64,000 bases of DNA from Patescibacteria group bacterium (GCA_041659765.1 JBAZXR010000001.1:595338-659337), one strand, 5' to 3'; counted from the first letter of the stretch, positions 5,237 through 38,302 are shown. Notes: a model not told the origin generated them from the sequence alone. Made by a program: numbers and translations.

Positions 5237-5788
5237 ATGCATATCCCCCAGCGCTATATCACGGACACCGCGGAGCTCAAGAAGATAGTGGAAAGCATGA
5301 AAACGCTGGGCATGAAGATTGTCCTGACTCAAGGCGTTTATGACCTAATCCATGAAGGTCATGCCCTTTATTTAGAGAAGGCCAAGGCACTGGGCGATGT
5401 TCTCATAGTCGCTGTCGACTCCGATGAACTGACAAAGATCCGAAAAGGTCCTAAGCGTCCGATTGTCCCCCAAAATGAGCGTGTGAACATGTTGTTGCAC
5501 TTGAGGCACGTCGATATCGTGACCATCAAAGAAGCTCATCAAGGGCTGGGCGACGTCATTCAAGCTGTGCGACCTGATGTCATGGTGTTTTCGGGATCGA
5601 CCAAGGATATTACGCCGGAACATGTAGCTGAGTACAAAGACTGTTGCGGTGAAATTGTCGTCCTCCCCCCACAGGCGACTACGACTACTACGGCTCGCGT
5701 TCGCAATTTAACGATCGAGGGCGCCGAAAAACTCGCCAAAGAAGTAAACGAACTCATCGCCAAGTTTCTACAACAGATCGGCGAGTAA
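5237..5788 (+). CDS. cytidylyltransferase-like nucleotidyltransferase (RfaE domain II / HldE-C-like)
   Basis: GVYDLIHEGHALYLEKAKALGDVLIVAVDSDE matches the (T/H)xGH nucleotidyltransferase motif of RfaE-II, TagD and RibL. AAGGTG RBS before the ATG at 5237. The longer TTG-start ORF begins at 5219. Confidence 0.7.
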   Translation: MHIPQRYITDTAELKKIVESMKTLGMKIVLTQGVYDLIHEGHALYLEKAKALGDVLIVAVDSDELTKIRKGPKRPIVPQNERVNMLLHLRHVDIVTIKEAHQGLGDVIQAVRPDVMVFSGSTKDITPEHVAEYKDCCGEIVVLPPQATTTTTARVRNLTIEGAEKLAKEVNELIAKFLQQIGE

Positions 5789-5859
5789 TCATCGGCCGCA
5801 AACCTGTTGCCCCAAAATTTGGAGTCGGCAACGAATAAGTACGCCTCCTAACAAATTTT

Positions 5860-6699
5860 GTGACAACAAGTTTTCGTCCTCCCTGTATGCTTATTGCATT
5901 CGTGCCGGTGCTGCATAAGGGCTATGTTGAGCTCTTCAGAAAGTATCCGGGGCAGCTCGGCCTTCTTGGAGCAGATGTTATCTCAGATTTCACCTCGCTC
6001 ATCAGGGACCTTCGAGTGATCGACCCGGCGGAGATGCGAAAGGCTGTTTTCTCTTTAGAATTGTTTGACGAGGTGTTTGTGATGAATAAGCTCGCTCTCG
6101 AAGCGCTCGACGGCCAGTCCCTCATCATGCCGGAAGACGACATTTCACACGCGATCCACGCCCAATATTTCCCGAACGCTGAAGTGATCTTTGAGCCGAT
6201 CTTTTTACGCTGGGACCGGCAGATCTCGACTGCTGAGCATATTGTCGACCCTCAGCGAGTGATCTCGCACGAAGAACTCCACAAACACCTCATCAACTTA
6301 GCGAGCATAGAATCTGCCAAAAGTGCTGACTGGTGGCGGCAGATTGGGGCGCTAATCGTGAAGGACGGCATTATCGTGGCCCAAGCGCACAACCATCATC
6401 TCCCCACAGACTTTCACCTGAGCGCGCATGGTGACCCCAGGAGCAACTTTGACGCCGGTACGAACCTAGACATCTACACGTCTATTCACGGCGAAGCAAG
6501 CGCTATTGCTCAAGCCGCACGAGACGGCATCGGTCTCAAGGGTTCCTCGCTGTACTCAACCGTCTTCCCCTGCCCCAACTGCGCCCGAATCATCTGCGAA
6601 GCGGGAATATCGAAGGTGTATTACGAGAAAGGCTACTCACGCGTAGATGCGGAACAAATTTTTAAGGCGTTTAACGTTGAGATAATTCTCGTCGCCTAA
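5860..6699 (+). CDS. dCMP/cytidine deaminase-family protein with ~140-aa N-terminal extension of unknown function
   Basis: C-terminal half has the zinc-deaminase motifs HGEASAIAQAA and LYSTVFPCPNCARIICEAGISKVYY (the H(A/G)E ... PCxxC pattern). The N-terminal 140 aa have no recognisable family. Confidence 0.7.
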   Translation: MTTSFRPPCMLIAFVPVLHKGYVELFRKYPGQLGLLGADVISDFTSLIRDLRVIDPAEMRKAVFSLELFDEVFVMNKLALEALDGQSLIMPEDDISHAIHAQYFPNAEVIFEPIFLRWDRQISTAEHIVDPQRVISHEELHKHLINLASIESAKSADWWRQIGALIVKDGIIVAQAHNHHLPTDFHLSAHGDPRSNFDAGTNLDIYTSIHGEASAIAQAARDGIGLKGSSLYSTVFPCPNCARIICEAGISKVYYEKGYSRVDAEQIFKAFNVEIILVA

Positions 6700-7136
6700 C
6701 CAATCCGACACAGGACGCCTTTCGACGAATCGTATTCAGGACTATCAGGATCGCCTTGGACGACTTGTGCGTGAAGATGGGTAACCGAAGCTCCTGTGTA
6801 TTTGGTGTCGCCAAAACGCATCATGAGGGCTCCCCCGGCCATATTCCTTGTTTTCGAGAGCTCGACGACGATGTCCTGAAGTTCGCTCCAGGCTTCCTTA
6901 GACAACTCCGAAACCGTCTCGATGTGCGTCTTGTGCACGAGTAGCAAATGCTGCTTCACCGGCTTATACGGATAGGCGTTGTCCGTCACTAACCAGTACG
7001 TCTTTTCGACGATCGGATTCGGGTGAATTCTGTGAATGTGTTCGGGACAAAAAGGACAGATTTTCTCTTTGGCGATGTCGTCGATAACTTTGGCGTAACC
7101 GCCGCGTTGGGAGTTGAAAGGGTTAACGTAGTTCAT
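6696..7136 (-). CDS. HIT-superfamily protein, GalT/Ap4A-phosphorylase-like branch (HxHxQ)
   Basis: CPFCPE zinc-knuckle-like motif near the N-terminus and THLHAQVV (H-x-H-x-Q) as in the galactose-1-phosphate uridylyltransferase half-barrel. Confidence 0.55.
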   Translation of the reverse strand: MNYVNPFNSQRGGYAKVIDDIAKEKICPFCPEHIHRIHPNPIVEKTYWLVTDNAYPYKPVKQHLLLVHKTHIETVSELSKEAWSELQDIVVELSKTRNMAGGALMMRFGDTKYTGASVTHLHAQVVQGDPDSPEYDSSKGVLCRIG

Positions 7137-7142
7137 AGTTTC

Positions 7143-7216
7143 TCCACTCTGAGTCTTGCGAAGAGTCCGACCCTCAGAGGAGAGAGTCGGATCCTTCGCT
7201 CTCGCTCAGGATGGGA
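7143..7216. repeat. Family-B palindromic intergenic element (copy B1)
   Basis: CTCTGAGTCTTGCGAAGAGTCCGACCCTCAGAGG...AGTCGGATCCTTCGCTCTCGCTCAGGATGGGA. About 95% identical to the copy at 48789-48864. Internally self-complementary. Confidence 0.8.
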
Positions 7217-8107
7217 TCAGACAGGCGTGGGGATCAACATCGCAGGATGCGCTTGATATTCAGTGACGACGAAGTGTTCGGGACGGAAGGCAAAGATGTC
7301 GGTGATAGACGGATCGATGGTCATGGTTGGGAACGGCTTTGGTTCGCGAGCGAGGAGTTCCTTCACCTTCTCGTACTGACTTTCGTAGATGTGTGCGTCG
7401 CTGATGGTGTAGACGAGTTCCTTGGGGGTATAGCCCGTTACCTGGCCGATCATCATGAGGAAAGCGGCGTACTGGATGAAGTTAAAAACGACGCCGACAG
7501 GGATATCGCCCGAGCGTTGAAAATGGTGCACGGAAATTTCCTTCGTTTCCGGATACACAAGAATGTGCAGGTAGCCGTGGCATGGGGCGACGACAACCTT
7601 GCGCGGAGGCAAACTCGAGTTCTGAATGCAGTACTGCGGAATCCAGGGAGAAATGATGTGCGTGCGTAGGTTTGGCTTGTCTTTAATCTGCTGGACGACT
7701 TCTTTAATTTGATTGAACGGTGCTCCTTCGGCGGTCGGAAACGCAGTCCATGCTGGTCCGTAAGAACCGGGACCAAGGTCGCCTTCGGGGAGCCCGAAAA
7801 TATCGCAGCGTTCTTTTGTGACCCACTTCTTCCACCAGGCGCAGCCCCATTCGGTCAGCTCCGCCTGCGTTCTGGCGCCGTGCAGAAAGGCGATGTGTTC
7901 GGCCAAGGCGCCGATCATGAACTTCCCCGATAGATCGCGCTCGGTAATCATGGGGAAACCATTTTCAAAGAGAAAACGCATCTGGTGGCCAAGCACCATT
8001 TTGGACTTCTCGCCTTGAATCGGTGAAACTTCGACGCCCTCGCGCATAATGCGTTCAAGCAAATCATGATACTGATGATCCGGCGTGCGTTCGGCGTAAG
8101 GTTTCAT
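7217..8107 (-). CDS. thyA: thymidylate synthase (ThyA family)
   Basis: GHQMRF, GDLGPGSYGPAW, APCH, FQRSGDIPVGVVFNFIQYAAFLMMIGQ (active-site Asn retained), DAHIYESQ, REPKPFP. Confidence 0.9.
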   Translation of the reverse strand: MKPYAERTPDHQYHDLLERIMREGVEVSPIQGEKSKMVLGHQMRFLFENGFPMITERDLSGKFMIGALAEHIAFLHGARTQAELTEWGCAWWKKWVTKERCDIFGLPEGDLGPGSYGPAWTAFPTAEGAPFNQIKEVVQQIKDKPNLRTHIISPWIPQYCIQNSSLPPRKVVVAPCHGYLHILVYPETKEISVHHFQRSGDIPVGVVFNFIQYAAFLMMIGQVTGYTPKELVYTISDAHIYESQYEKVKELLAREPKPFPTMTIDPSITDIFAFRPEHFVVTEYQAHPAMLIPTPV

Positions 8108-8208
8108 ACGGAGTGATGTTATAGGTAATCAGAAATTTAGGAAACCTATAAACGGGGATAATTAAAGAGCCCGACGCATCTGCGCCGGGCCCACGATGAT
8201 CCTCACTT

Positions 8209-8688
8209 CTAGCCGATCGGGAAGTTCACAGGTACCGCACGAGTGACCCCGGGATCTTCGTAGAACTTCTGGCGAGGACGGAAGAAGTGCATGTGACGAT
8301 GAACGATGGTGCGGCCGGAGATGGCCGGATCGCCGAACCGCCATCCGACTCCTCCGCCCTGCCAGCCCAGCTCTTTCGTTACGAAGTCGTACGCTTCGCC
8401 GAGGGCAAGCCAGTCGGACAGGCACATCTCCTCGCCGTGGTGAAGCGGGTAGAAGAGCAGGTGGTCGTCCACCTCCTGTCCCTCCGTGTCCCGACGCTTA
8501 GGACGGCACTCGCACAAAACCCAGTCGTGAGCCTCCCAAACGATCCGCTGATCGTTCGGGAAGCCCGGCGCACAGAAGATGCATTCGCCGGTGCGAGCTG
8601 ATTCGAGCAACTGTTCGTAATACGCGGGACTGCGCTTGGCGTAATCCACATTGGCAACCGGAGACTTCATCCAATCAGGAACCTTAGA
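8209..8688 (-). CDS. HIT family protein (classic HxHxHxx)
   Basis: Start chosen at MSKVPDW, which has a GGAGGT RBS. CIFCAPGFP plus histidine triad IVHRHMHFF. The longer 240-aa ORF would overlap folA and is discounted. Confidence 0.6.
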   Translation of the reverse strand, partial: SKVPDWMKSPVANVDYAKRSPAYYEQLLESARTGECIFCAPGFPNDQRIVWEAHDWVLCECRPKRRDTEGQEVDDHLLFYPLHHGEEMCLSDWLALGEAYDFVTKELGWQGGGVGWRFGDPAISGRTIVHRHMHFFRPRQKFYEDPGVTRAVPVNFPIG

Positions 8689-8740
8689 CATTTGACCTCC
8701 TTGATCTCGCGGCGAAAAGGTACCATACTCTTCCCAATCT

Positions 8741-9265
8741 ATGAAAACCATTCTCCTGGCTGCTGTTACCGCTAATGGCTTCATTGCCCGTTCAACCAAT
8801 GAACTCGCCAATTGGACCAGCAAAGAAGACAAGAAACTGTTCGTCGAAGAAACCAAAAAAGCAGGCGTCATGATCATGGGTCGGACAACTTTTGCGACCA
8901 TTGGAAAACCCTTGCCAGGCCGGCTGATCATAGTGCTAACCGAAAAACCCGAAGAAGTTGCCGTGGTTCCTGGAAGCGTGGAAACCGCGTCCGGTGATTT
9001 GAAAATGATCCTCGAAAACCTTGAAAAGCGTGGCTATTCGTCGGTGATCGTTGCTGGGGGCTCAAATGTCTACTCACAATTCTTAAATGCAGGCTTAGTT
9101 GACGAACTTTTACTCACAGTTGAGGCGGTCATGTTCACAGACGGCATCAGACTGACCCAAAATCTCACCCGCGAAATTACCCTTGAACTCTTGAGTGTCG
9201 AAAAACTTGGAGAGAAGAGCGTTCTTTTCCGCTACTCGACACATCTGTCCACATCTCCTCGTTGA
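8741..9265 (+). CDS. folA: dihydrofolate reductase
   Basis: ILLAAVTANGFIA...LFVEETKKAGVMIMGRTTFATIGKPLPGRLIIVLT and a GG motif at VIVAGGSNVY. Typical DHFR. Confidence 0.9.
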   Translation: MKTILLAAVTANGFIARSTNELANWTSKEDKKLFVEETKKAGVMIMGRTTFATIGKPLPGRLIIVLTEKPEEVAVVPGSVETASGDLKMILENLEKRGYSSVIVAGGSNVYSQFLNAGLVDELLLTVEAVMFTDGIRLTQNLTREITLELLSVEKLGEKSVLFRYSTHLSTSPR

Positions 9266-9346
9266 TTTGTTTCCCGGGTGATGGCACATTCGGCTCTGAA
9301 GCCGACGCACCCCATGCTTGTACGTCGGCTTTTACAATACGCACCT

Positions 9347-9769
9347 ATGCAAGTCATCATTCGCAGGCTTACTCCGGAAGTTCCAATGCCTGAATACAAA
9401 ACTTCAGGCGCCTGTGCGTTCGACATTGCGGTGATTGAAGAAGGAGTCTTGCAGCCGAATGAACGCCGACCATTCCGGACCGGACTAGTCGTCAAAGTAC
9501 CAGACGGACATATTCTTTTACTCGCCCCTCGCTCAAGTAATGCCAAAAAAGGCGTCAGACTAGCAAATGGCATAGGCTACATTGACCGCGATTACTGCGG
9601 ACCAACAGACGAGCTCTTCGCCTACCTCCATAATGTCGGGAACGAACCATACACGGTTCAAAAAGGCGAAAGAATCATGCAGGGCGTTATTGTTCCCTGC
9701 CCAGTCGTCACCTTCATCGAAGGCGAAACGGGAAACGCTGACCGAGGCGGATTTGGGACAACGGGATGA
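9347..9769 (+). CDS. dut: dUTP diphosphatase
   Basis: Dut motifs GACAFDIA, PRSSNAKKG, GIGYIDRDYCGP, ERIMQGVI, RGGFGTTG. The ORF track begins at 9278; the internal Met at 9347 is the more likely start. Ends with a TGA stop. Confidence 0.85.
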   Translation: MQVIIRRLTPEVPMPEYKTSGACAFDIAVIEEGVLQPNERRPFRTGLVVKVPDGHILLLAPRSSNAKKGVRLANGIGYIDRDYCGPTDELFAYLHNVGNEPYTVQKGERIMQGVIVPCPVVTFIEGETGNADRGGFGTTG

Positions 9770-9783
9770 TATAATCCCGCCAT

Positions 9784-10644
9784 ATGGCTTCTCTCATCTC
9801 TCTTGGGCAAGTGATCGATAAGACAATCGCCCACTATCGCAAACACTTTGTTGAACTCTTGAGCATTACGACTTGGATAGTCATCGCTTCAGTGCCCGCA
9901 GCGGCCGCTAAGATTTTGCAGCCATACACGGCTGGTACTGAACCTACGCCACTCCATATTTTCTATCTGGTCTTGAGCTACTCGGGCGCCATTCTGTTGG
10001 CAGTAGTCAGCACCTGGGTTTTACTAAGCATCATCATTGCGGTGGCCGAAGAAGCCTCCGGCACGACCCGTGACCAGAAAGCTCAAGGCAAAAAAGCCTG
10101 GAAATTATTTTTCTCTTACGTCTGGGTATCTATTCTGGTCTCCCTCGTCATGGCGTTAATTCTAGTTCCGCCATTCCTCGGGCTGGTCCTCATCATCATT
10201 GATGCTGCTCGCAATACGTCCACCGTTCTATCATCAATTGGCGGCGTACTGCTCTTCGTGGGAGCGCTCGTTTCTTTCATTCTCCTCGTTAAATACAGTA
10301 TTCAGTACGGCTTCGCCCCATACTCGCTGGTCTTAGAAAACGAGCATGGCGTTAAAGCACTTCAACACTCAGCTACGCTCGTCTCCGGACGCTGGTGGGG
10401 CACGTTCTTCCGTTTTGTGGTCCCCAAGCTCATCTATGCGCTGGTAGTTTTTGTCCTGAATTTCCTCCTCTTGGCGGTCCTCGCCATTCTCCTCATTGTT
10501 CTACTCGGTGAAGGCCAGCTCTACCAAGGGATTGGCAATGCGACCTGGCTTATATTAAGCTCAGTCGTAACGGCGCTCTCGCTACCGCTTATTGCCGTAA
10601 CGGACTTCTACATTTATGACAGCCTCAGAACTACCCGAAGTTAA
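9784..10644 (+). CDS. polytopic membrane protein, unknown function
   Basis: 286 aa with at least six predicted TM helices. Confidence 0.6.
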   Translation: MASLISLGQVIDKTIAHYRKHFVELLSITTWIVIASVPAAAAKILQPYTAGTEPTPLHIFYLVLSYSGAILLAVVSTWVLLSIIIAVAEEASGTTRDQKAQGKKAWKLFFSYVWVSILVSLVMALILVPPFLGLVLIIIDAARNTSTVLSSIGGVLLFVGALVSFILLVKYSIQYGFAPYSLVLENEHGVKALQHSATLVSGRWWGTFFRFVVPKLIYALVVFVLNFLLLAVLAILLIVLLGEGQLYQGIGNATWLILSSVVTALSLPLIAVTDFYIYDSLRTTRS

Positions 10645-11359
10645 GCCCTCTCTTCCTAGCGTCTCTTCTCTCATTTCGACTTCCTACAAGTTCCTAGCCA
10701 CTCCCCCGCACACCTCCGTGCTCTTTGGCTTTGCCGGCTGGCTCTTGATACCTATTCTACTGAACCTTGGCTCAACTTTTCTGAGCCCGCAGGTGGGCGA
10801 AGTGGTTAATCTAATTTCCAACATCCTGGTCTTTGGTCTCTCCCTCTGGGCAACCGCTGCCATGACCATCATGATCACCGGTTTAGTCCGTCCCGATCTG
10901 GCGCCAAAAGATGTAGCCACGAGCGTCAGTGAACTAGCGTGGCGACGTGCCCCATCACTCCTCTGGGTTGGGCTGTTAGTTGCTGTTCTGCAAGCCTTTG
11001 GTCTCCTCCTGCTCGTCATCCCTGGGATTATCTTCACTGTTTGGTTCGCCTTTGCTGAAACCGAAGTGATTCTTACCGGGGCTGGCGTCTTCTCAGCCAT
11101 GGAACAAAGTCGCGAGCGAGTACGAGGGCAATTCTTCCCAGTACTCTGGCGCATGGTGGCTTTCTCGCTACTACTGACCACACTAGTCATGATGATTATT
11201 TGGCCCGTGCTGGTCCTCTCCGGCAATACCGATCTAATGATTGTCCTCACCACTCCCCCGGCGTGGTTAGACACTCTCATGAGCCTCCTTTCCGTCCTCC
11301 TCATGCCCCTCATTTTGACCTACGAACTCCATCTTTACTTTAGCCTCCGAAAGCCGTAA
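10616..11359 (+). CDS. polytopic membrane protein, paralog-like of the preceding gene
   Basis: 247 aa with a similar TM architecture and a similar C-terminal Y..LR ending. Overlaps the upstream gene by 29 nt. Confidence 0.55.
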   Translation: MTASELPEVKPSLPSVSSLISTSYKFLATPPHTSVLFGFAGWLLIPILLNLGSTFLSPQVGEVVNLISNILVFGLSLWATAAMTIMITGLVRPDLAPKDVATSVSELAWRRAPSLLWVGLLVAVLQAFGLLLLVIPGIIFTVWFAFAETEVILTGAGVFSAMEQSRERVRGQFFPVLWRMVAFSLLLTTLVMMIIWPVLVLSGNTDLMIVLTTPPAWLDTLMSLLSVLLMPLILTYELHLYFSLRKP

Positions 11360-26469: not shown

Positions 26470-26597
26470 GAATACGTATCAAGAGTCCGTCGAGGGTCCT
26501 GGCCCAATGACACGGCAGCAGCCTACGCAAGTAAGGTGCTAACTCCAGCCCTAACGGGAAAGATAATTATTATCCGACGCCGTCATGGCGTTTTTTT
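26470..26597 (+). promoter_or_regulatory. SAM-I (S-box) riboswitch with terminator, upstream of metK
   Basis: UAUCAAGAG...CGAGGGUCCUGGCCCAAUGACACGGCAGC...GGUGCUAACUCCAGC...GGGAAAGAUAA carries the conserved SAM-I blocks. It is followed by the expression-platform hairpin ACGCC-GUCAU-GGCGU plus U7, which abuts the metK ATG. Confidence 0.85.
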
Positions 26598-27557
26598 ATG
26601 CTCACTCCCCTAATCTATACCGTCGAATCCGTCACAGTTGGTCATCCGGACAAAGTCTGCGATCAGATTTCCGATGCAATTCTCGACGCGTGTGTAAAGC
26701 AAGACCCAAATAGTCGTGTCGCGATTGAAACATTCGGCAGTCATGGACTCTTAGTTCTTGGCGGTGAGATTACGACGAAGGCGAAGGTCGATTATTCAGC
26801 GATCGCGCTCAAGGTCTACAGAGATATTGGTTACACGGATGATCTCAAAGTCCTCGTCCATATCACCGAGCAGTCCCCGGACATCGCCCAAGGCGTAGAC
26901 ACCGGCGGCGCAGGTGACCAAGGAATTATGTACGGCTTTGCCACGGACGAAACGCCAGAGTTCCTCCCCCGCGGCCTGGTGTACGTTCGACAATTAACCG
27001 ACAAACTGACGGAACTCAGAAAATCCGGCGAGGTTGCTTGGTTGAAACCCGACGGTAAGGCGCAGATTACGATGCAAAACGGCAAAGCGACGGTCGTTTT
27101 AATCAGCACACAGCATGACGAAGCCGTCTCTCAGGATGAGATCAGAAAAACCCTCATCGAAAAAGTCATCTACGCCGTCATCCCCGAAGAATATCGCGCA
27201 CTAGGAATGGAAATCCTCACAAACCCCACGGGCAAGTTTGTCATTGGCGGATTTGCTGCAGACACCGGACTCACTGGTCGAAAGTTGGCCGTCGACTCCT
27301 ATGGCGGAATCGTCGCCCACGGCGGTGGTGCTACAGCCGGCAAAGACATGACCAAGGTCGACAGATCAGCCGCCCGCAAAGCCCGCGAAGTCGCCCTCGA
27401 CATTGTTAAATCTGGAAAGGCGCACGAGTGTTTGATTTCCGTGGCCTACGCAATTGGCAAAGCCGAACCCGTCATGCTTTGGGCACAAAACGAAAACCAA
27501 GAAGACATCACCCCATTACTCGCCGGAATTAGTTTCTTGCCGAAGGATCTCCGCTAG
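26598..27557 (+). CDS. metK: S-adenosylmethionine synthetase (short form, 319 aa)
   Basis: ESVTVGHPDKVCDQISDAILDA, GAGDQGIMYGFATDETPEFLP and GGGATAGKD motifs. About 60 aa shorter at the C-terminus than typical bacterial MetK. Confidence 0.9.
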   Translation: MLTPLIYTVESVTVGHPDKVCDQISDAILDACVKQDPNSRVAIETFGSHGLLVLGGEITTKAKVDYSAIALKVYRDIGYTDDLKVLVHITEQSPDIAQGVDTGGAGDQGIMYGFATDETPEFLPRGLVYVRQLTDKLTELRKSGEVAWLKPDGKAQITMQNGKATVVLISTQHDEAVSQDEIRKTLIEKVIYAVIPEEYRALGMEILTNPTGKFVIGGFAADTGLTGRKLAVDSYGGIVAHGGGATAGKDMTKVDRSAARKAREVALDIVKSGKAHECLISVAYAIGKAEPVMLWAQNENQEDITPLLAGISFLPKDLR

Positions 27558-29593: not shown

Positions 29594-30310
29594 CTATACA
29601 ACCTTTCCATTCAGATAATTCGTAGCGATGTCCCGAAAAACTGCCTCAGAGAGTTCGAAGTTGAATAAACGGAAAAGTTCATCTGTGACATTCCTCGCCA
29701 AAAGGAAGATCTCTTCATCATTATTCAATTTATCAATATTCGTAGTTAAAACCGTCTCACTCGTTTTCTCTCTAACGCATAAGTATTCCCAAAAAAGCAT
29801 TCGTGAAGAATTTGCCGACATCAGCCGTCTCCCTTGAAGTTGATGGTGACGAACGGTGATAGATACGGTGGTGTCGCCGGCGATCTTTGCTAAGCGAAAA
29901 AAATTACGGAGATACATCAATGTTTCCGTCACTCGAATGATACGCGTATCGAAAAATACCGCGTTCTCTTTACGCTCATCTTCAAAGATTGTTTTGTATA
30001 AATAGAAAGCCCCGATCGCGTTCCAAGCCCAAAAATCTAAACTTCCTCGGCTTTTGTCGAATACCCGAGCAACGTGACCATCACGATCAGGTTGCGGCTT
30101 AAACTCACTACGATCCAAAAATACAGCAATCGGCCAACCAAACGTCTTAATTGTAGAATCCTTTGCCCAAGTGAGGATATCTCTCTTTTGAAGGCTAAGC
30201 TCATTATCAAAAAATACCTCAACCTCCATAATCCCTCTTTTTTTATCCAACGGAATGGACCTAGCTTCAGTCTTCATTCTATCGAACCACTGTTTTTGAT
30301 TTGCGGTCAT
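29594..30310 (-). CDS. hypothetical protein (238 aa), candidate partner/antitoxin of the upstream RelA/SpoT-domain protein
   Basis: No recognisable domain and no HD motif. Its start overlaps the stop of the RelA/SpoT gene by 4 nt (ATGA). Confidence 0.5.
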   Translation of the reverse strand: MTANQKQWFDRMKTEARSIPLDKKRGIMEVEVFFDNELSLQKRDILTWAKDSTIKTFGWPIAVFLDRSEFKPQPDRDGHVARVFDKSRGSLDFWAWNAIGAFYLYKTIFEDERKENAVFFDTRIIRVTETLMYLRNFFRLAKIAGDTTVSITVRHHQLQGRRLMSANSSRMLFWEYLCVREKTSETVLTTNIDKLNNDEEIFLLARNVTDELFRLFNFELSEAVFRDIATNYLNGKVV

Positions 30311-31071
30311 AAACCATTCTTTTTATCATCCTGCTCTCTAGCCTGCTTTTGTACAAGTTGCCACACCTTTTCACACCCCCTATGAATCAAAGAAATTGCG
30401 TCGCTCAGGTCCTTGGAGTCACCTTTCTCGTCTCTGCCATATAGATATTTCCTATCTTGCACTGCCCAGGCATCACCCAAAACCGTTCTAAGTTGAATTT
30501 CACAATGCAAATCACGCGCGATTCGGTCGTATCTCATTGTCTTGGTTACAGTAAAATGGATTGCGTCATAAAACGGACTTGATCGTCTATCCAGTGTAGC
30601 AGTGTCAGTTTTATTGTTAGTCAATCCTAAAGGAGGTTGATTCCTCATTGGAGTCTTAGTGTCGAATACACCATGTTCATCTTTCGATGTTTTTACACAC
30701 TTACCCTCAAGGCGATATGCCTTCAATTCATTGTCTAATCGGTCAGCAAATTTCCAGAGATCGTCTGCACAATTCAACGTAACCCTTACCCCTGCTATGT
30801 CTTTAAAAGAAAATAGACTTTTATACTTTTTCTTCCCAGAGTTTTTATTCCCATCATTATAATTCTCTAAAATCTTACCGATGTCTTTTATATTCTTTCT
30901 AGCGCCGATTGTCTCCACATCGATTCCAGCCTCCTCACACTCCTCACAGATCTGGTTTACAAACCGTAGAATATTTCTTTGCAACTTTAAATACACAGGA
31001 GCCCAAACCACATATTCCTCTCTAATCTTATCCTCAGCCTTCATAAAACCCGCTTGGGTCAATCGCTCCAA
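30307..31071 (-). CDS. RelA/SpoT-domain nucleotidyltransferase (small alarmone synthetase-like; possible toxSAS)
   Basis: FKDIAGVRVTLNCADDL and HCEIQLRTVLGDAWAVQDRKYLYG match the (p)ppGpp-synthetase fold motifs (D-x-A-G-x-R ... EIQ(I/L)RT). 254 aa. Overlaps the 3' end of the hsdM-S gene by 13 nt. Confidence 0.7.
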   Translation of the reverse strand: MERLTQAGFMKAEDKIREEYVVWAPVYLKLQRNILRFVNQICEECEEAGIDVETIGARKNIKDIGKILENYNDGNKNSGKKKYKSLFSFKDIAGVRVTLNCADDLWKFADRLDNELKAYRLEGKCVKTSKDEHGVFDTKTPMRNQPPLGLTNNKTDTATLDRRSSPFYDAIHFTVTKTMRYDRIARDLHCEIQLRTVLGDAWAVQDRKYLYGRDEKGDSKDLSDAISLIHRGCEKVWQLVQKQAREQDDKKNGL

Positions 31072-33482
31072 AGCTTCGCGATCGTTTCTTTAGTTTTTTG
31101 CTCGTAAATCTCAATCAGTTTCTTGGCAGATTCCATGAGCACACGCTCAGCCTCGATTTTTTCCACTATTTGTTTTTGGATGACAAGAGGTGGAAGAGGG
31201 ATTATTACATTTCTAACGATCTCGGAATTAAGATTTCTAACTACCCCACCCGTAGCGGCGTTCTCGAATTGTTCCACCACAATATCTGAACTCAGAATGT
31301 AGTACAGAAAATCTTTTCCGATCTTCTTAGCGTCTTCGGTTAAGCGCAACCAACCGTCATGAATATATCCGTCAATTTTCATTATATATGGACGCCCAAA
31401 ACTCATTGAGTTTGAAAGTACAAAATCACCAACAACGACTTTACGAGATTTTTCTGCGCCCTCCTTTGTCACTCTCTCCGCCGTATGAGTAATATATTTA
31501 TCAGCATTTTTTGTATCCCCAATTTTTACCCAATTAAATCCATCTGAGCTCTCTGTTATAAACTTATCTATCGGGCGCGGCGATGCCCCTCTTTCGATTT
31601 TACAAACTTCGCTGATTTTTACCTTCTCCCACTCTAAACCGATGTCAATTTTTGGTTTCCAATTTTGAGCGATTTGTTTCGCGCCAGCTATGATACCTGC
31701 GTAGCCGCTCAACTCCGCCACGATTTGCTCTTGAAATTCGAGGGAAGGAAGAGGAATCTTGAATTTAGAATATTGAGATATCCAGTATCGCTTGTGCTCA
31801 CCGGGAGTAAACGGGATATTCTGCATTACGTAATAGACATAGCGTATGTTCGCCAACTCTTTTTTTGTGTGTAGTATCTTCATTGCGGAAGACTTCACCT
31901 TGAACGGAAAATCGACAAATTTAGTTGCGGTTGTAAAATCATCAAATATTATCACTGGCAACCCCTCACGAAAAATACCCGTCGTCTCGTTGGTGTGGCC
32001 CAATACAAACGTCTTCCCTGCAGTGAGAACGGGGGTCAGATATTCATCTTTATAATCAACGGATTCGACCAAATACTTAGTGGGCTGCTCGTAGTCCAGA
32101 ACCTCGCCCAATTCTACCATCGGCCATTTTACGTTCGAGTGATCCATAGCGACCCGATATCGATCCGCGGAGAGATTGTAATCATCATTCTTCGCTATGT
32201 CCGTTTTTTCTACATAAATAACGTGCGCATCTTGAGCTTTCTTTCCCTTGGTCCATTCTCTCAAGATATTGACGGATGCAGGTAGATCGTTCTTGCCGAT
32301 GGGTCTACGAGTAGCACCGAGGTCGAATCCATCGTTTTCTATCTTAATAAATACTATTTCATTGAGCGTTTTGGCCAAAGTCACGTCAAAGAAAAGGATG
32401 CTTGTTTTGACGCCGGCGTATGGATTAAATACACCACCGGGAAGACTCACGACAGCAAAAAGACCATCTTCTACCAGATTCTTTCTTAGTTGTTTATACG
32501 CGCTACCCGACTGAAAGATGACCCCTTCTGGCACAATCACGCCCGCCCGGCCGCCTGGTCGCAAGTGGCTCATGATGTAATCGACGAAAAGCACCTCCGC
32601 ACGGTTAGATTGAACTCCAAATTTAGTATGCGGCTTAATCCCGCCTTTTGGAGACATGAATGGTGGGTTAGCTAAGATCACATCGAACTTATCGTTCCAA
32701 CGCTCGTCGCTGGAAAGAGAGTCATACTGGAAAATCTTTGGATTCTTAAATTGGTGGAGGTATGTATTTACCTGGGCAATACGAACCATTCCAGGATCTA
32801 TATCGTAACCCTCAAAATTATTCATCAGCTTGCGCTTCTCGTCTGGAGTAAGCGGTTTCTCTTTCTTTTCTGGGTCATCCTTACCATCGTGTTGCTCTAA
32901 AATGTGCCTATACGAGCTCACCAAAAATCCACCCGTTCCACAGGCAGGATCGAGGACCTTATCATCTTTGGTTGGGTTAACTACATCTACAATGAAATCG
33001 ATAATGTGACGCGGCGTGCGAAACTGGCCGGCATCACCCTGGCTAGACATGATCGAAAGAAGGTATTCGTATGCGTTACCAAGTTCTTCGGAATGCGAAT
33101 AATCAAAATAGTTAATTTCATTCAAAAACAAACCGAGAACTTCAGGCGATCTGTATGGCAAAAAAGCGGACTTAAAGATTCCACGAAATAATTCTGGTAG
33201 CTGTTTCGCCTCAGAAAACTTCAGAAGCGCTTCAGAATAGAGATTCATGCGCTCCTGGTTGCCCATACGTTGATCCATGAGGCGCGTCCAAGCGTAACGC
33301 TCGAGCTCACCCACGAAGAAGGACGGATCTCCGCCAGCCTTAATAGCAGCCTGATCCATGTCATCCATGAACTTATAGATAAGTGCGTTGGTGATCTGGT
33401 CAATTTGAGATGTTGGATTTGGCACTACGCCTACCAAAACCTGGCGAGCAGCATCAATGTGGCGTTTTGTTTCGGTATTCAT
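31059..33482 (-). CDS. hsdM: type I restriction-modification fused methyltransferase-specificity protein (HsdM-HsdS fusion)
   Basis: N-terminal N6-adenine MTase (FRTPRHIIDFIVDVV...VLDPACGTGGFLV; ILANPPF) is followed by two target-recognition modules. Each module ends in an HsdS conserved spacer (IPLPSLEFQEQIVAELS and IIPLPPLVIQKQIVEKIEAE). 807 aa. Confidence 0.85.
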   Translation of the reverse strand: MNTETKRHIDAARQVLVGVVPNPTSQIDQITNALIYKFMDDMDQAAIKAGGDPSFFVGELERYAWTRLMDQRMGNQERMNLYSEALLKFSEAKQLPELFRGIFKSAFLPYRSPEVLGLFLNEINYFDYSHSEELGNAYEYLLSIMSSQGDAGQFRTPRHIIDFIVDVVNPTKDDKVLDPACGTGGFLVSSYRHILEQHDGKDDPEKKEKPLTPDEKRKLMNNFEGYDIDPGMVRIAQVNTYLHQFKNPKIFQYDSLSSDERWNDKFDVILANPPFMSPKGGIKPHTKFGVQSNRAEVLFVDYIMSHLRPGGRAGVIVPEGVIFQSGSAYKQLRKNLVEDGLFAVVSLPGGVFNPYAGVKTSILFFDVTLAKTLNEIVFIKIENDGFDLGATRRPIGKNDLPASVNILREWTKGKKAQDAHVIYVEKTDIAKNDDYNLSADRYRVAMDHSNVKWPMVELGEVLDYEQPTKYLVESVDYKDEYLTPVLTAGKTFVLGHTNETTGIFREGLPVIIFDDFTTATKFVDFPFKVKSSAMKILHTKKELANIRYVYYVMQNIPFTPGEHKRYWISQYSKFKIPLPSLEFQEQIVAELSGYAGIIAGAKQIAQNWKPKIDIGLEWEKVKISEVCKIERGASPRPIDKFITESSDGFNWVKIGDTKNADKYITHTAERVTKEGAEKSRKVVVGDFVLSNSMSFGRPYIMKIDGYIHDGWLRLTEDAKKIGKDFLYYILSSDIVVEQFENAATGGVVRNLNSEIVRNVIIPLPPLVIQKQIVEKIEAERVLMESAKKLIEIYEQKTKETIAKLWSD

Positions 33483-33484
33483 AC

Positions 33485-36052: not shown

Positions 36053-36243
36053 AGTCCTGGAGATTCTATCACCGGTCTAAAAACCCCGCCACATCAAGTA
36101 AAGTCAGCTTGCCGACGAGTGCATGCCTTATGCGCAAAGTATCCCCTTCCCCCGAAGCCTATTATCAGCGAGTATAGGCATGGCGGATCGGGAGGTGGTC
36201 GAACCCGCGAAGTCAATTAATATTAACCCCAGTACACACACCT

Positions 36244-36453
36244 ATGACAGACATCAAAGGGAACCAGGACGGACCCGGCGGTCGAAACGAAACGTATAAA
36301 ATCGGTTCGCGCCGTGAAGTCCCCCGAGTGCAGGCAGTACGAGAGGTAAAGGCCGGAACACACGACGGAGCTCATGTGGTCAAAATCAATGGCCGGGAGT
36401 ACGTTCGTGACAATCCGGACAGCTCCAAGCGTGACAACGTCAACCAACGTTAA
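36244..36453 (+). CDS. small hypothetical protein (69 aa)
   Basis: Gly/Arg-rich N-terminus. A conserved-looking HVVKINGREYVRDNPDS core. Followed by a bidirectional terminator. Confidence 0.4.
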   Translation: MTDIKGNQDGPGGRNETYKIGSRREVPRVQAVREVKAGTHDGAHVVKINGREYVRDNPDSSKRDNVNQR

Positions 36454-36561
36454 GGTTAATGGAAAAGCTGCACGAGTAGATAGAGCCCGCTCGGAAGGAG
36501 TAAATGAGGCAGTTGTAATCTGAAAATGGCGCTCGAAAGGTAGCACCTTCCAAAGTCACAC

Positions 36562-36590
36562 AAAACCCCGTCGGCCAGGCGGGGTTTTGC
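36562..36590. terminator. bidirectional terminator
   Basis: AAAACCCCG-TCGGCCAGG-CGGGGTTTT. Confidence 0.6.
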
Positions 36591-36699
36591 TTACGCTCTC
36601 TCTTCATCTTCGCGGTTTTGAAGTCTTCGCCTCCCCTATAAAGGGACTGCTGCGGGTGCCCGCCGTAGTCAGTAAACCTATGGCTTTAAACATCTGCGC

Positions 36700-38256: not shown

Positions 38257-38302
38257 TTGATCTTACGCGTTATTAAAAACCGCCACGCAAAGTGACGGTT
38301 TT

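What the first reader, a model, noticed from the sequence alone, without database searches (positions are those of the whole stretch)
5237..9769. Thymidylate-synthesis neighbourhood containing two split HIT/GalT-like half-barrel paralogs and an extended dCMP-deaminase
Within 4.5 kb lie a cytidylyltransferase-like NTase, a dCMP/cytidine deaminase with an unexplained ~140-aa N-terminal domain, thyA, folA and dut. That covers every step to dTMP. thyA is flanked by two ~150-aa HIT-superfamily proteins of different branches: one H-x-H-x-Q (GalT/Ap4A-phosphorylase-like, with CPFCPE) and one classic H-x-H-x-H (with CIFCAPGFP). Together they resemble the two halves of a GalT-type nucleotidyltransferase split into separate genes. 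Their placement suggests a nucleotide-transfer/salvage or dNMP-modification role linked to the pyrimidine deoxynucleotide pool. This neighbourhood looks uncharacterised.
Basis: partly seen in the sequence, partly recalled or inferred. Interest (0 to 1): 0.6.

Follow-up and report, generated by a model that had tools for sequence, protein, structure and literature searches.

The report
Conserved Patescibacteria thymidylate cluster with HIT
The flagged genes are a real dTMP-synthesis cluster whose core (thymidylate synthase with a small HIT enzyme, facing a nucleotidyltransferase with an unusually long dCMP deaminase) keeps the same order in every candidate-phyla (Patescibacteria) genome examined, but the "split GalT" idea does not hold and the roles of the HIT and nucleotidyltransferase partners remain untested.

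Summary
Bases 5237-9769 encode an HldC/TagD-like nucleotidyltransferase (NTase), a roughly 275-aa dCMP deaminase with a real N-terminal domain, HIT1, thyA, HIT2, folA and dut.

New results:
1. Synteny. thyA sits immediately upstream of HIT1 in 78/78 GTDB species loci, and in 53/54 (by inspection 54/54) independent metagenome loci. The long deaminase converges on HIT1 in 74/77 loci, and the NTase precedes it in 72/73. The outer flanks vary.
2. Deaminase N-domain. It is not an annotation artefact: 359 cluster representatives match it. AlphaFold gives pLDDT 92-94, and the best solved matches are HldC, FMN adenylyltransferase and TagD. So it has a degenerate HIGH-type nucleotidyltransferase fold, with HxGY where HxGH sits. 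One metagenomic protein fuses NTase, N-domain and deaminase.
3. HIT2. It is a divergent HIT1 paralog (hhalign 97.6%) found in few lineages. About one locus in five carries some extra HIT gene.
4. HIT1 motif. The Q of HxHxQ is not conserved (H about 43, N about 23, Q about 15 of 82 orthologs). Profile matches go to small Hint-type HIT proteins, not GalT or Ap4A phosphorylase.

The "split GalT" and "two branches" readings are therefore unsupported.

Best mechanism, inferred only: the NTase makes and HIT1 breaks an NMP-X bond, supplying dCMP or dUMP to the deaminase and ThyA. No description of this cluster was found in the literature searched.

The parts
5237..5788 (+). HldC/TagD-like cytidylyltransferase-family nucleotidyltransferase (NTase), 183 aa. 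HEGH motif at 5351-5362 and TTTTTAR at 5678-5698. The mechanical ORF starts at TTG 5219.
   Evidence: Pfam CTP_transf_like 58 bits. rfaE_dom_II 105 bits, below its cut-off of 181.5. Best PDB match is HldC 5x9q/5xf2 at E = 3e-17, then ECT and TagD. It lies immediately upstream of the long deaminase in 72/73 loci and is fused to it in P0124.
5860..6264 (+). N-terminal domain of the deaminase (DeaN, aa 1-135 of the ORF; probable ATG start at 5887). It has a degenerate HIGH-type nucleotidyltransferase-like Rossmann fold. Motifs: HKGY 5914-5925, RDLR 6004-6015, MPEDD 6127-6141, LRWD 6205-6216.
   Evidence: No Pfam or PDB sequence hit. 359 representative clusters match at E <= 1e-3, nearly all 270-300 aa with the domain at the N-terminus. 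AF2 pLDDT 92.3. Foldseek top hits are HldC 5xf2 (E = 6e-3, prob 1.0, TM 0.53), FMNAT, pantothenate synthetase and TagD. Invariant or nearly invariant residues: P16, H19, G21, Y22, R49, D50, R52, P91, L116, R117, W118.
6265..6699 (+). dCMP-deaminase-type zinc deaminase core. HGE at 6487-6495 and PCPNC at 6568-6582.
   Evidence: Pfam dCMP_cyt_deam_1 58.6 bits. PDB sequence hits are S-TIM5 dCMP deaminase (E = 2.6e-14) and the T4 enzyme. The full-length AF2 model (pLDDT 93.7, pTM 0.81) matches T4, S-TIM5, S. mutans, human and PBCV-1 dCMP deaminases best.
6696..7136 (-). HIT1, a 146-aa HIT-superfamily protein. CPFCPE at 7041-7058 and HLHAQ at 6765-6779. Its stop codon overlaps that of the convergent deaminase.
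   Evidence: Pfam HIT and DcpS_C; 24/24 family members hit HIT. The profile hits Hint-type PDB chains. thyA is immediately upstream on the same strand in 78/78 loci and about 54/54 loci. Invariant: CPFC, H71, R107, H120, H122.
7217..8107 (-). thyA, a classical thymidylate synthase of 296 aa. Catalytic PCH at 7577-7585.
   Evidence: Pfam 217 bits. TIGR03284 176 bits, above its cut-off of 108. Best PDB hits are bacterial TS at E = 2e-45. In-frame DHFR-ThyA fusions in relatives argue for DHF-producing TS chemistry.
8167..8192 (-). G+C-rich hairpin (11 pairs) between HIT2 and thyA. It is terminator- or attenuator-like with a weak T tail.
   Evidence: Consensus scan only, and the number of sites found is not above chance for the region.
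8209..8691 (-). HIT2, a 160-aa divergent paralog of HIT1. CIFCAPGFP at 8557-8583 and HRHMH at 8287-8301. It is restricted to a few lineages.
   Evidence: No Pfam hit. hhalign against the HIT1 family gives 97.6%, E = 3e-12. Only 3 close homologs found. Same position in L004 and L084. RBS AAGGAGG upstream. dN/dS 0.09.
8741..9265 (+). folA (dihydrofolate reductase), 174 aa, divergent from HIT2 across a 49-bp spacer.
   Evidence: Pfam DHFR_1 64 bits and RibD_C 62 bits. DHFR is found in 65/80 related loci and is fused to ThyA in some.
9278..9769 (+). dut (dUTPase). The ORF starts at GTG 9278; the probable start is ATG 9347 (140 aa, as called in L084).
   Evidence: Pfam dUTPase 55.5 bits; TIGR00576 92 bits. 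L084 gene call of 140 aa.

Best explanation
SHOWN. This is the local copy of a dTMP-synthesis gene cluster conserved across Patescibacteria. Its fixed core is two convergent, tightly packed units:
- thyA followed by HIT1;
- an HldC/TagD-like nucleotidyltransferase (NTase) followed by a two-domain deaminase, which is a degenerate NTase-like N-domain (DeaN) plus a dCMP-deaminase core.

folA, dut and, in relatives, glyA, folD and occasionally dcd are variable satellites. HIT2 is a lineage-restricted, divergent paralog of HIT1 inserted upstream of thyA. It is not an obligate partner.

INFERRED MECHANISM.
1. Both thyA and the deaminase take deoxynucleoside monophosphates. Both accessory enzymes belong to families that work on the alpha-phosphate of an NMP-X bond: cytidylyltransferase-type NTases make NMP-X from NTP and release PPi, and HIT enzymes break or transfer NMP-X through a nucleotidyl-histidine intermediate.
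2. I propose that the NTase and HIT1 together move pyrimidine deoxynucleotide from the triphosphate level, or from a nucleotide conjugate, to dCMP or dUMP. The net step would be dCTP to dCMP plus PPi, which is the job DCTPP1 does upstream of dCMP deaminase in human cells.
3. The deaminase then makes dUMP and ThyA makes dTMP. DHFR recycles the folate. Dut adds dUMP from dUTP.
4. DeaN, which keeps H-x-G-Y and an invariant Arg where NTases bind NTP, most likely binds a (d)NTP non-catalytically. It would pair with the NTase as a pseudo-dimer, as the two tandem cytidylyltransferase domains of ECT do, to couple or regulate the deaminase.

CONFIDENCE BY STEP.
- Identity of the parts and conservation of the cluster: about 0.9.
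- A real functional link of HIT1 and the NTase to dTMP synthesis: about 0.7.
- The specific 'make and break NMP-X to supply dCMP/dUMP' mechanism: about 0.3.
For: Parts.

Synteny across species representatives with 41-84% HIT1 identity:
- thyA immediately upstream of HIT1 in 78/78 loci;
- the deaminase convergent within 1 kb in 74/77;
- the NTase immediately upstream of the deaminase in 72/73;
- many 4-bp start/stop overlaps.
This was repeated on 80 metagenome loci, giving 53/54 (the exception is an ORF-calling artefact) and 47/51.

The flanks vary while the core stays fixed. The gene upstream of thyA is SHMT, DHFR in either orientation, Dut, another HIT or something else. The cluster also appears in a very divergent example, L086.

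Fusion evidence: P0124 joins NTase, DeaN and the deaminase core in 469 aa.

DeaN fold: AF2 pLDDT 92-94. The top Foldseek hit is HldC 5xf2, the same PDB entry that is the adjacent NTase's best sequence match. Its invariant residues lie at the canonical NTP-binding positions.

The deaminase core is closest to dCMP deaminases. ThyA is canonical and is repeatedly fused to DHFR.

Extra HIT genes of several subfamilies have been recruited to the same locus in about 1 in 5 species.

Precedent for a dCTP-to-dCMP step feeding thymidylate synthesis: the DCTPP1 paper, PMC7162842.
Against: - No biochemical data exist, and nothing in the sequences identifies the substrate of HIT1 or the NTase.
- A two-enzyme route to dCMP is more complicated than a single pyrophosphatase or the reversal of Cmk and Ndk.
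- The NTase's best family match is heptose-1-phosphate adenylyltransferase, not a deoxynucleotide enzyme.
- Homology between DeaN and the NTase is not significant at sequence level: hhalign E = 0.09, score 16.8 against 11.5 for a reversed control. The structural match is moderate (TM about 0.5).
- Loci were collected through HIT1, so the fraction of Patescibacteria thyA genes that lack HIT1 is unknown.
- Whole-genome content (dcd, cmk, ndk, RNR class) could not be checked.
Confidence: 0.4

Rival explanations
1. Regulatory or scaffold reading. The NTase and DeaN do not turn over a pathway intermediate. They bind dCTP or dTTP and allosterically control a deaminase core that, like the small S-TIM5 enzyme, lacks its own allosteric site. 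Alternatively they scaffold a dNTP-synthesis complex. HIT1 would be a Hint-like housekeeping hydrolase that is merely co-expressed with thyA.
For: The deaminase core is most like the S-TIM5 dCMP deaminase. DeaN keeps NTP-binding-type residues but has HxGY in place of HxGH and lacks the C-terminal ISTT-type motif. The full-length model has pTM 0.81, which suggests a fixed inter-domain arrangement. HIT1's nearest solved relatives are Hint-type proteins.
Against: The stand-alone NTase retains every catalytic motif of active cytidylyltransferases (HEGH, RKGPxRP, the T-rich loop) under strong conservation. A generic Hint would not be expected next to thyA in 78/78 species.
Confidence: 0.2
2. Triphosphate-level deaminase. 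DeaN anchors the triphosphate of dCTP, so the fused enzyme deaminates dCTP to dUTP. Dut then gives dUMP for ThyA. This would replace the trimeric Dcd that is missing from most of these loci.
For: The strongest NCBIfam hit of the core (74 bits, aa 208-270) is to the anti-phage dCTP deaminase, which also carries an N-terminal NTP-binding domain. The bifunctional dCMP/dCTP deaminase of PBCV-1 is among the top structural matches. dcd is seen in only 1 of 80 loci, and dut in 29 of 80.
Against: The best overall matches are monophosphate deaminases. This reading gives no role to the catalytically intact NTase or to HIT1. dut is not consistently linked to the cluster.
Confidence: 0.12
3. Co-location without a functional link. 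In streamlined genomes that recombine little, HIT1 and the NTase are unrelated housekeeping genes frozen next to thyA and the deaminase, near the nusG-L11-L1 ribosomal cluster.
For: The cluster often sits beside secE-nusG-rplK-rplA in the window and in relatives. Patescibacteria genomes are compact.
Against: The genes flanking the four-gene core are shuffled among species while the core is not. There are 4-bp overlaps. The NTase is physically fused to the deaminase in P0124. Additional HIT genes have been recruited repeatedly to the same spot.
Confidence: 0.1
4. HIT1 (HxHxQ) and HIT2 (HxHxH) are the two halves of a GalT-type nucleotidyltransferase split into two genes, and they work as a heterodimer.
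For: They are paralogs, and both keep the CxxC and His motifs. All HIT dimers resemble the two half-barrels of GalT (general knowledge). In this lineage both genes flank thyA.
Against: HIT2 orthologs are known only from a handful of close relatives, and about 80% of species have HIT1 alone. The Q is replaced by H or N in most HIT1 orthologs. No GalT or Ap4A-phosphorylase similarity was detected. A hairpin separates HIT2 from thyA-HIT1.
Confidence: 0.04
5. dNMP modification pathway. The ThyA-like enzyme and its partners make a modified pyrimidine deoxynucleotide, as in phage hypermodification systems.
For: ThyA homologs, deaminases and nucleotidyltransferases do occur together in phage base-modification clusters (general knowledge).
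Against: ThyA scores as a canonical TS with the dUMP-type Asn and the catalytic Cys. It is coupled or fused to DHFR, which is needed only if DHF is produced. No relatives were found in 2.9 million viral contigs. No kinase, glycosyltransferase or aminotransferase partners appear in the cluster.
Confidence: 0.03

Closest known systems
Human DCTPP1 -> DCTD -> TYMS route, in which dCTP pyrophosphatase supplies dCMP for thymidylate synthesis (PMC7162842)
   Same: The pathway logic proposed here is the same: dCTP-level pyrimidine is brought to dCMP, deaminated to dUMP and methylated to dTMP, with DHFR and dUTPase alongside.
   Different: DCTPP1 is a single all-alpha MazG-type pyrophosphatase. Here the candidate suppliers are a HIGH-type nucleotidyltransferase and a HIT protein, and their activity is untested.
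HldC / RfaE domain II, TagD (GCT), and ECT with its tandem cytidylyltransferase domains
   Same: The NTase has the HxGH, RKGxxRP and T-rich motifs, and its best PDB match is HldC 5x9q/5xf2. DeaN has the same fold, with HxGY at the same position. The NTase-DeaN tandem in the fusion protein P0124 resembles ECT's two tandem domains.
   Different: The NTase scores below the rfaE_dom_II equivalog cut-off (105 against 181.5). No heptose or glycerol-phosphate pathway genes are nearby. It is always paired with a deaminase. DeaN is unrecognisable by sequence profiles.
Small Hint-branch HIT proteins (5uvm, HP0404 4zgl, 6d6j, HinT) and aprataxin
   Same: These are the best profile matches to HIT1. HIT1 has the single ~150-aa HIT domain, an N-terminal CxxC and the H-x-H-x-[HNQ] motif.
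   Different: HIT1 has a family-specific ~25-aa N-terminal extension and a conserved C-terminal tail (DPDxPxYD...RVG). It is only marginal against Pfam HIT (21.8 against 21.5). It is strictly linked to thyA.
GalT / Ap4A phosphorylase / GDP-L-galactose phosphorylase (the HxHxQ transferase branch of the HIT superfamily)
   Same: The window's own HIT1 happens to read HLHAQ. JGI labels several homologs 'ATP adenylyltransferase'.
   Different: The Q is not conserved. There is no tandem half-barrel architecture and no significant profile match.
Anti-phage dCTP deaminase (NF041025) and PBCV-1 bifunctional dCMP/dCTP deaminase
   Same: Both are CDA-fold deaminases related to the core here. The anti-phage enzyme also carries an N-terminal nucleotide-binding domain.
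   Different: The N-domain here has a HIGH-nucleotidyltransferase fold, not a kinase-like one. The context is housekeeping dTMP synthesis, not a defence island. The match covers only aa 208-270 and is far below the cut-off (74 against 400 bits).
T4 cd-td-frd genes and the dNTP-synthetase complex; protozoan and plant DHFR-TS fusions
   Same: dCMP deaminase, TS and DHFR are clustered. DHFR-TS fusions occur in several relatives.
   Different: Neither system has HIT or NTase partners. Here the cluster is cellular and absent from viral contigs.

Membership tests
HIT superfamily (PF01230 / clan HIT-like) | Histidine-triad motif H-x-H-x-H/Q-x-x with conserved first and second His | tested here: met
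   HIT1 has HLHAQ, with H120 and H122 invariant in 24 homologs and in 82 orthologs. HIT2 has HRHMH, invariant in 4 sequences.
HIT superfamily (PF01230 / clan HIT-like) | Significant match to HIT sequence profiles | tested here: met
   HIT1 scores 21.8 bits against a cut-off of 21.5. 24/24 family members hit HIT, best 1e-9. The profile matches HIT chains in the PDB at E = 8e-6. HIT2 has no Pfam hit itself, but hhalign to the HIT1 family gives 97.6%, E = 3e-12.
HIT superfamily (PF01230 / clan HIT-like) | Alpha+beta half-barrel fold forming a dimer | not tested
No multimer tool was available.
GalT / Ap4A-phosphorylase branch of HIT | Conserved H-x-H-x-Q (Gln in place of the third His) | tested here: not met
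   The third position among 82 HIT1 orthologs is H about 43, N about 23, Q about 15 and S 1.
GalT / Ap4A-phosphorylase branch of HIT | Sequence-profile match to GalT or Ap4A phosphorylase models or structures | tested here: not met
   No GalT or Apa chains at E <= 1 in the PDB profile search. Ap4A_phos_N in 5/24 members at E >= 0.01. galT_1 in 1/24 at E = 0.07.
GalT / Ap4A-phosphorylase branch of HIT | Two HIT-like half-barrels acting together (tandem in one chain, or here two co-conserved genes) | tested here: not met
   HIT1 is a single 146-aa domain. A second HIT gene is present in only about 16-19 of 80 species loci, and these belong to several unrelated subfamilies.
dCMP deaminase (ComEB/DCTD type, PF00383) | H(A/G)E and PCxxC zinc and catalytic motifs | tested here: met
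   HGE at aa 210-212 and PCPNC at aa 237-241. H210, E212, C238 and C241 are invariant in 104 sequences.
dCMP deaminase (ComEB/DCTD type, PF00383) | Closest sequence and structure relatives are dCMP deaminases | tested here: met
   S-TIM5 at E = 2.6e-14 and the T4 enzyme. Foldseek top 15 hits are all dCMP deaminases.
dCMP deaminase (ComEB/DCTD type, PF00383) | Reaches the curated equivalog score (TIGR02571 ComEB) | tested here: not met
   56 bits against a cut-off of 219. It is a divergent subfamily with an extra domain.
dCMP deaminase (ComEB/DCTD type, PF00383) | Substrate is dCMP rather than dCTP or a conjugate | not testable with these tools
   This needs an enzyme assay.
HIGH-motif nucleotidyltransferase, cytidylyltransferase-like (PF01467): the stand-alone NTase | HxGH motif and a profile match above the Pfam cut-off | tested here: met
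   HEGH at aa 39-42. 58.3 bits against a cut-off of 21. HldC at E = 3e-17.
HldC / RfaE domain II (heptose-1-P adenylyltransferase equivalog) | Equivalog score and a heptose pathway context | tested here: not met
   105 bits against a cut-off of 181.5. No GmhA, HldA or GmhB-like conserved neighbours among 80 loci.
HIGH-motif nucleotidyltransferase fold: DeaN | Five-stranded Rossmann-like fold with nucleotidyltransferases as the best structural matches | tested here: met
   The AF2 model has pLDDT 92.3. Foldseek gives HldC at E = 6e-3, prob 1.0, TM 0.53, followed by FMNAT, PanC and TagD. The match is moderate, not strong.
HIGH-motif nucleotidyltransferase fold: DeaN | Intact HxGH and a sequence-profile match | tested here: not met
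   The motif is H-x-G-Y, with Y22 invariant or nearly so. There is no Pfam or PDB profile hit. hhalign against the NTase family gives E = 0.09.
Thymidylate synthase ThyA | Equivalog score, catalytic Cys, dUMP-type Asn, and DHF-producing chemistry | tested here: met
   TIGR03284 176 bits, above its cut-off of 108. PCH at aa 175-177. QRSGD...FNF is aligned to bacterial TS. DHFR is adjacent or fused in relatives. The chemistry itself is inferred.

The most novel reading that the evidence does not exclude
Patescibacteria use a previously undescribed route to dUMP and dTMP. A cytidylyltransferase-type enzyme, docked on the NTase-like N-domain of the deaminase, activates dCTP as a dCMP-X conjugate. 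The conjugate, or the dCMP released from it, is deaminated. The thyA-coupled HIT enzyme then cleaves the NMP-X bond to hand dUMP to thymidylate synthase. This would be a channelled four-enzyme carrier cycle that replaces Dcd or DCTPP1.
Probability: 0.15. Interest if true: 0.8.

Novelty: new variant of a known kind. Interest (0 to 1): 0.55.

Why it matters
Patescibacteria (CPR) make up a large share of bacterial diversity. They cannot make nucleotides de novo, and dTMP synthesis is one of the few nucleotide conversions they keep.

Two uncharacterised enzymes, a HIT protein and an HldC-like nucleotidyltransferase, are locked to thyA and to an unusual two-domain dCMP deaminase in every locus examined. 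A deaminase domain invisible to Pfam turns out to be a nucleotidyltransferase relic. Together these define a concrete and testable gap in a pathway thought to be fully understood.

The work gives a functional context to a HIT family and an NTase-like domain family that public records list as 'hypothetical protein' or simply 'deaminase'. It also provides a compact set of four small proteins for in-vitro reconstitution.

If the accessory enzymes do supply dCMP or dUMP, that would be a new way of feeding thymidylate synthase. If they turn out to be regulators, the cluster would be a new mode of controlling the deaminase.

Tried and rejected
1. A word-index homolog search with the N-domain alone found nothing. 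The exhaustive HMMER search then found 359 clusters.
It accepted proteins returned by the representative search.
4. An N-domain profile search of the PDB and Pfam gave only noise.
5. hhalign of DeaN against the NTase family aligns the motifs co-linearly but is not significant. The score is 16.8 against 11.5 for a reversed control. Homology is therefore claimed only at fold and motif level.
6. I looked for HIT1 fusions that might reveal a partner. None were found in 160 loci. A 315-aa 'DHFR_1' protein next to ThyA on the P0124 contig could be a HIT-DHFR fusion, but no DNA is held for it.
7. Scans of viral contigs with the HIT1 and DeaN profiles found no relatives. A phage origin or modification role was rejected.
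8. PHROGs gave only generic dCMP deaminase and HldE-like hits.
9. Six literature searches found no description of the cluster.
10. A riboflavin (RibD/RibL-like) reading of the deaminase, DHFR-like protein and NTase was considered and rejected. The core matches dCMP deaminases far better than RibD (E = 1e-14 against 5e-4), and DHFR is fused to ThyA in relatives.
11. An NDP-heptose enzyme reading of the NTase was considered. No heptose pathway genes are nearby.

Full report
**What is there**

ORF listing and profile scans confirm seven genes in 5237-9769.
- An HldC/TagD-like cytidylyltransferase-family NTase, 5237-5788 (+). It scores 58 bits on CTP_transf_like and 105 bits on rfaE_dom_II, below that equivalog's cut-off of 181.5.
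- A deaminase ORF, 5860-6699 (+), with a probable ATG start at 5887. Its dCMP_cyt_deam_1 match covers only aa 142-256.
- HIT1, 6696-7136 (-).
- thyA, 7217-8107 (-).
- HIT2, 8209-8691 (-).
- folA, 8741-9265 (+).
- dut, 9278/9347-9769 (+).

The 240-aa mechanical ORF for HIT2 over-extends into folA. The 160-aa start at 8691 has an AAGGAGG 6 nt upstream. It also matches homolog N-termini and a public gene call.

All genes are under purifying selection against the closest relative (dN/dS 0.05-0.16).

The window comes from a Patescibacteria MAG. HIT1 and HIT2 carry locus tags WC813_03280 and WC813_03290, and NCBI names both 'hypothetical protein'.

**The HIT proteins**

HIT1 and HIT2 are paralogs. 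BLASTP gives 28% identity over 68 aa with E = 4e-7. hhalign of the two families gives 97.6%, E = 3e-12, over 127 columns. HIT2 itself falls outside Pfam's reach.

HIT1 belongs to a family of about 146-152-aa proteins from Patescibacteria (71 hits).

Among 82 orthologs the third position is H (about 43), N (about 23), Q (about 15) or S (1). H120, H122 and CPFC are essentially invariant.

A profile of the family hits small Hint-type HIT proteins and aprataxin in the PDB. It hits no GalT or Ap4A phosphorylase at E <= 1. Pfam and NCBIfam scans of 24 members give HIT in 24/24 and DcpS_C in 23/24. Ap4A_phos_N and galT appear only at sub-threshold levels.

HIT2 has only three close homologs in the 5.8-billion-sequence collection. 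It occupies the same position, upstream of thyA and divergent from folA-dut, in L004 and L084. L031 and L036 carry more distant members.

Other species carry different extra HIT genes near thyA:
- roughly 200-aa EHFHFNYH forms;
- HAHAHIH forms;
- generic Hint-like forms between HIT1 and the deaminase.

In total about 16-19 of 80 loci carry an extra HIT gene. HIT1 therefore works without HIT2 in most species. This, together with the variable Q, removes the basis for a 'split GalT' model.

**Conservation of the neighbourhood**

A scan of one genome per GTDB species with the HIT1 alignment returned 80 loci from Uhrbacteria, Paceibacterota, Taylor-, Vogel-, Sung-, Lipton-, Nealson-, Adler- and Colwellbacteria and others. 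HIT1 identity ranges from 41 to 84%. I called ORFs and searched them with the window's proteins.

| Arrangement | Loci |
|---|---|
| thyA immediately upstream of HIT1, same strand | 78/78 with room, often with a 4-bp overlap |
| Long deaminase convergent on HIT1 within 1 kb | 74/77, often with overlapping stop codons as in the window |
| NTase immediately upstream of the deaminase | 72/73 |

An independent set of 80 metagenome loci gave 53/54 for thyA and 47/51 for the deaminase. The single thyA exception is an ORF-calling artefact.

The outer neighbours are not fixed. Upstream of thyA lies SHMT, DHFR in either orientation, Dut, another HIT or an unrelated gene. Beyond the NTase lies DHFR or an unrelated gene. 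This argues for selection on the four-gene core rather than frozen gene order.

The arrangement also holds in distant examples. No relatives of HIT1 or of the deaminase N-domain occur in 2.9 million viral contigs.

**The deaminase N-domain (DeaN)**

DeaN is not an annotation artefact. It is present in every ortholog. An exhaustive HMMER search found 359 representative clusters, almost all 270-300 aa with the domain at the N-terminus.

It has no Pfam or PDB sequence match, even as a 68-sequence profile.

AlphaFold models are confident. The full-length model has pLDDT 93.7 and pTM 0.81, and the domain alone has pLDDT 92.3. They show a five-stranded alpha/beta Rossmann-like domain.

Foldseek against the PDB puts HldC (5xf2) first, with E = 6e-3, prob 1.0 and TM 0.53. 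The FMN-adenylyltransferase module of FAD synthetase, pantothenate synthetase, TagD and universal stress proteins follow. All have the HIGH-motif nucleotidyltransferase (HUP) fold. HldC 5x9q/5xf2 is also the best PDB sequence match of the adjacent stand-alone NTase.

The nearly invariant residues are P16, H19, G21, Y22, R49, D50, R52, P91, L116, R117 and W118. They fall where NTases have HxGH, the R/K-rich loop and the post-beta5 Arg. A permissive hhalign aligns these motifs co-linearly but without statistical significance (E = 0.09).

DeaN is therefore a degenerate NTase-like domain at fold and motif level. It probably binds a nucleotide and is probably non-catalytic. Both of those statements are inferences.

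One metagenomic protein, P0124 (469 aa), fuses the NTase, DeaN and the deaminase core in that order. Its gene converges on a thyA-containing unit. This fusion, together with the 72/73 adjacency, ties the NTase functionally to the deaminase.

The C-terminal core is a dCMP-deaminase-type enzyme. It has the HGE and PCxxC motifs. Its best sequence and structure matches are the S-TIM5, T4, S. mutans, human and PBCV-1 enzymes.

**ThyA and the folate genes**

ThyA is canonical. TIGR03284 scores above its cut-off. The catalytic Cys and the QRSGD...N motifs align to bacterial TS.

In-frame DHFR-ThyA fusions occur in at least 11 related loci. L020 has DHFR at aa 45-200 and TS at aa 224-503. Such fusions make sense only for DHF-producing methylation. 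A hydroxymethylase or base-modification role is therefore unlikely.

**Mechanism**

Shown: the identity of the parts, the invariant core, the fusion and the fold of DeaN.

Inferred:
1. ThyA and the deaminase both consume deoxynucleoside monophosphates.
2. The two accessory families both act on an NMP-X alpha-phosphate bond. Cytidylyltransferase-type NTases form it from NTP with release of PPi. HIT enzymes cleave or transfer it through a nucleotidyl-His intermediate. This is established family chemistry. From my own knowledge, CdsA with the HIT-like Cdh is a known make-and-break pair for CDP-diacylglycerol.
3. The most economical reading is that the NTase and HIT1 bring pyrimidine deoxynucleotide from the triphosphate or conjugate level to dCMP or dUMP. 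The deaminase and ThyA then convert it to dTMP, with DHFR and Dut in support.
4. A dedicated dCTP-to-dCMP step feeding dCMP deaminase and TS has a precedent in human DCTPP1 (PMC7162842).
5. DeaN would dock the NTase as a pseudo-dimer or sense dCTP or dTTP.

I give the specific mechanism about 0.3. I give a real functional link of HIT1 and the NTase to dTMP synthesis about 0.7.

The rivals are listed separately with their tests:
- an allosteric or scaffold role only;
- deamination at the dCTP level, followed by Dut;
- mere co-location;
- the split-GalT heterodimer;
- dNMP modification.

**Limits**

- Loci were gathered through HIT1, so the share of Patescibacteria thyA genes without HIT1 is unknown.
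- Whole-genome gene content could not be queried.
- No multimer prediction was available.
- Only Foldseek against the PDB was usable for fold comparison.
- No substrate can be read from sequence.

**Verdict**

The neighbourhood is conserved, uncharacterised and linked to the pyrimidine deoxynucleotide pool. Its specifics are wrong: there are not two HIT branches, and there is no split GalT.

The real finding is a conserved four-gene core in Patescibacteria. It carries a thyA-locked HIT family and a dCMP deaminase with a relic nucleotidyltransferase domain, partnered with and sometimes fused to an active-looking NTase. I rate this as a new variant of a known kind of system, of moderate-to-good interest.

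Noticed in passing
window 26473-26569 (+), with 26598-27557 (+): A SAM (S-box) riboswitch (56 bits, above the gathering score) lies directly upstream of a 319-aa S-adenosylmethionine synthetase gene (metK).
   Followed up: partly
window ~29600-38300 (-): A low-G+C island (41-45% against about 52% elsewhere). It carries a RelA/SpoT-like 254-aa protein (30307-31071), a fused HsdM-HsdS type I methylase/specificity protein (31059-33482), HsdR (33485-36052) and an AAA_15/AAA_21 ATPase (36700-38256). It is probably a horizontally acquired restriction/defence island.
   Followed up: partly
window 6696-6699; also about half of L004-L083: The deaminase and HIT1 genes converge with overlapping stop codons, and no terminator-like site lies between them. 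In relatives the gap is mostly between -21 and +10 bp. The two units must therefore transcribe into each other, so antisense or collision effects are possible.
   Followed up: no
window 8167-8192 (-): An 11-bp, G+C-rich hairpin between HIT2 and thyA, with a weak T tail. HIT2 may be a separate or attenuated transcription unit from thyA-HIT1.
   Followed up: no
L020:6469-7995, L025, L026, L028, L031, L036, L041; L110, L115, L121, L124: In-frame bifunctional DHFR-thymidylate synthase fusions (456-508 aa) occur in several Patescibacteria. This architecture is better known from protozoa and plants.
   Followed up: partly
P0124 (469 aa; metagenome contigs of ERZ1426824/ERZ1426813, no DNA held): A triple fusion of NTase, NTase-like N-domain and dCMP deaminase. 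On the same contig ThyA is followed by a 315-aa protein annotated only with DHFR_1. That is long enough to be a HIT-DHFR fusion, but it could not be checked.
   Followed up: partly
L076:3228-3668, L049:8552-9031, L057:8602-9081, L066:6176-6610: A third kind of HIT gene (an ordinary Hint-like protein, Pfam HIT up to 41 bits) is inserted downstream of HIT1 in several species. It lies immediately downstream in L076, L049 and L057, between HIT1 and the deaminase where one is present, and about 2.7 kb downstream in L066. HIT genes appear to be recruited repeatedly to this locus.
   Followed up: partly
L086:2522-4231 (-): In a distant relative, CTP synthase (pyrG) sits divergently next to the NTase-deaminase pair. 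There the order on the other side is (thyA)-folA-HIT1.
   Followed up: no
window 9784-10644 and 10616-11359 (+): Two overlapping multi-pass membrane protein genes lie directly downstream of dut. They are conserved next to the cluster in 10-12 related loci and have no informative Pfam match (a weak GPDPase_memb hit only).
   Followed up: no
window 1-64000: ARAGORN found no tRNA or tmRNA gene in 64 kb.
   Followed up: no
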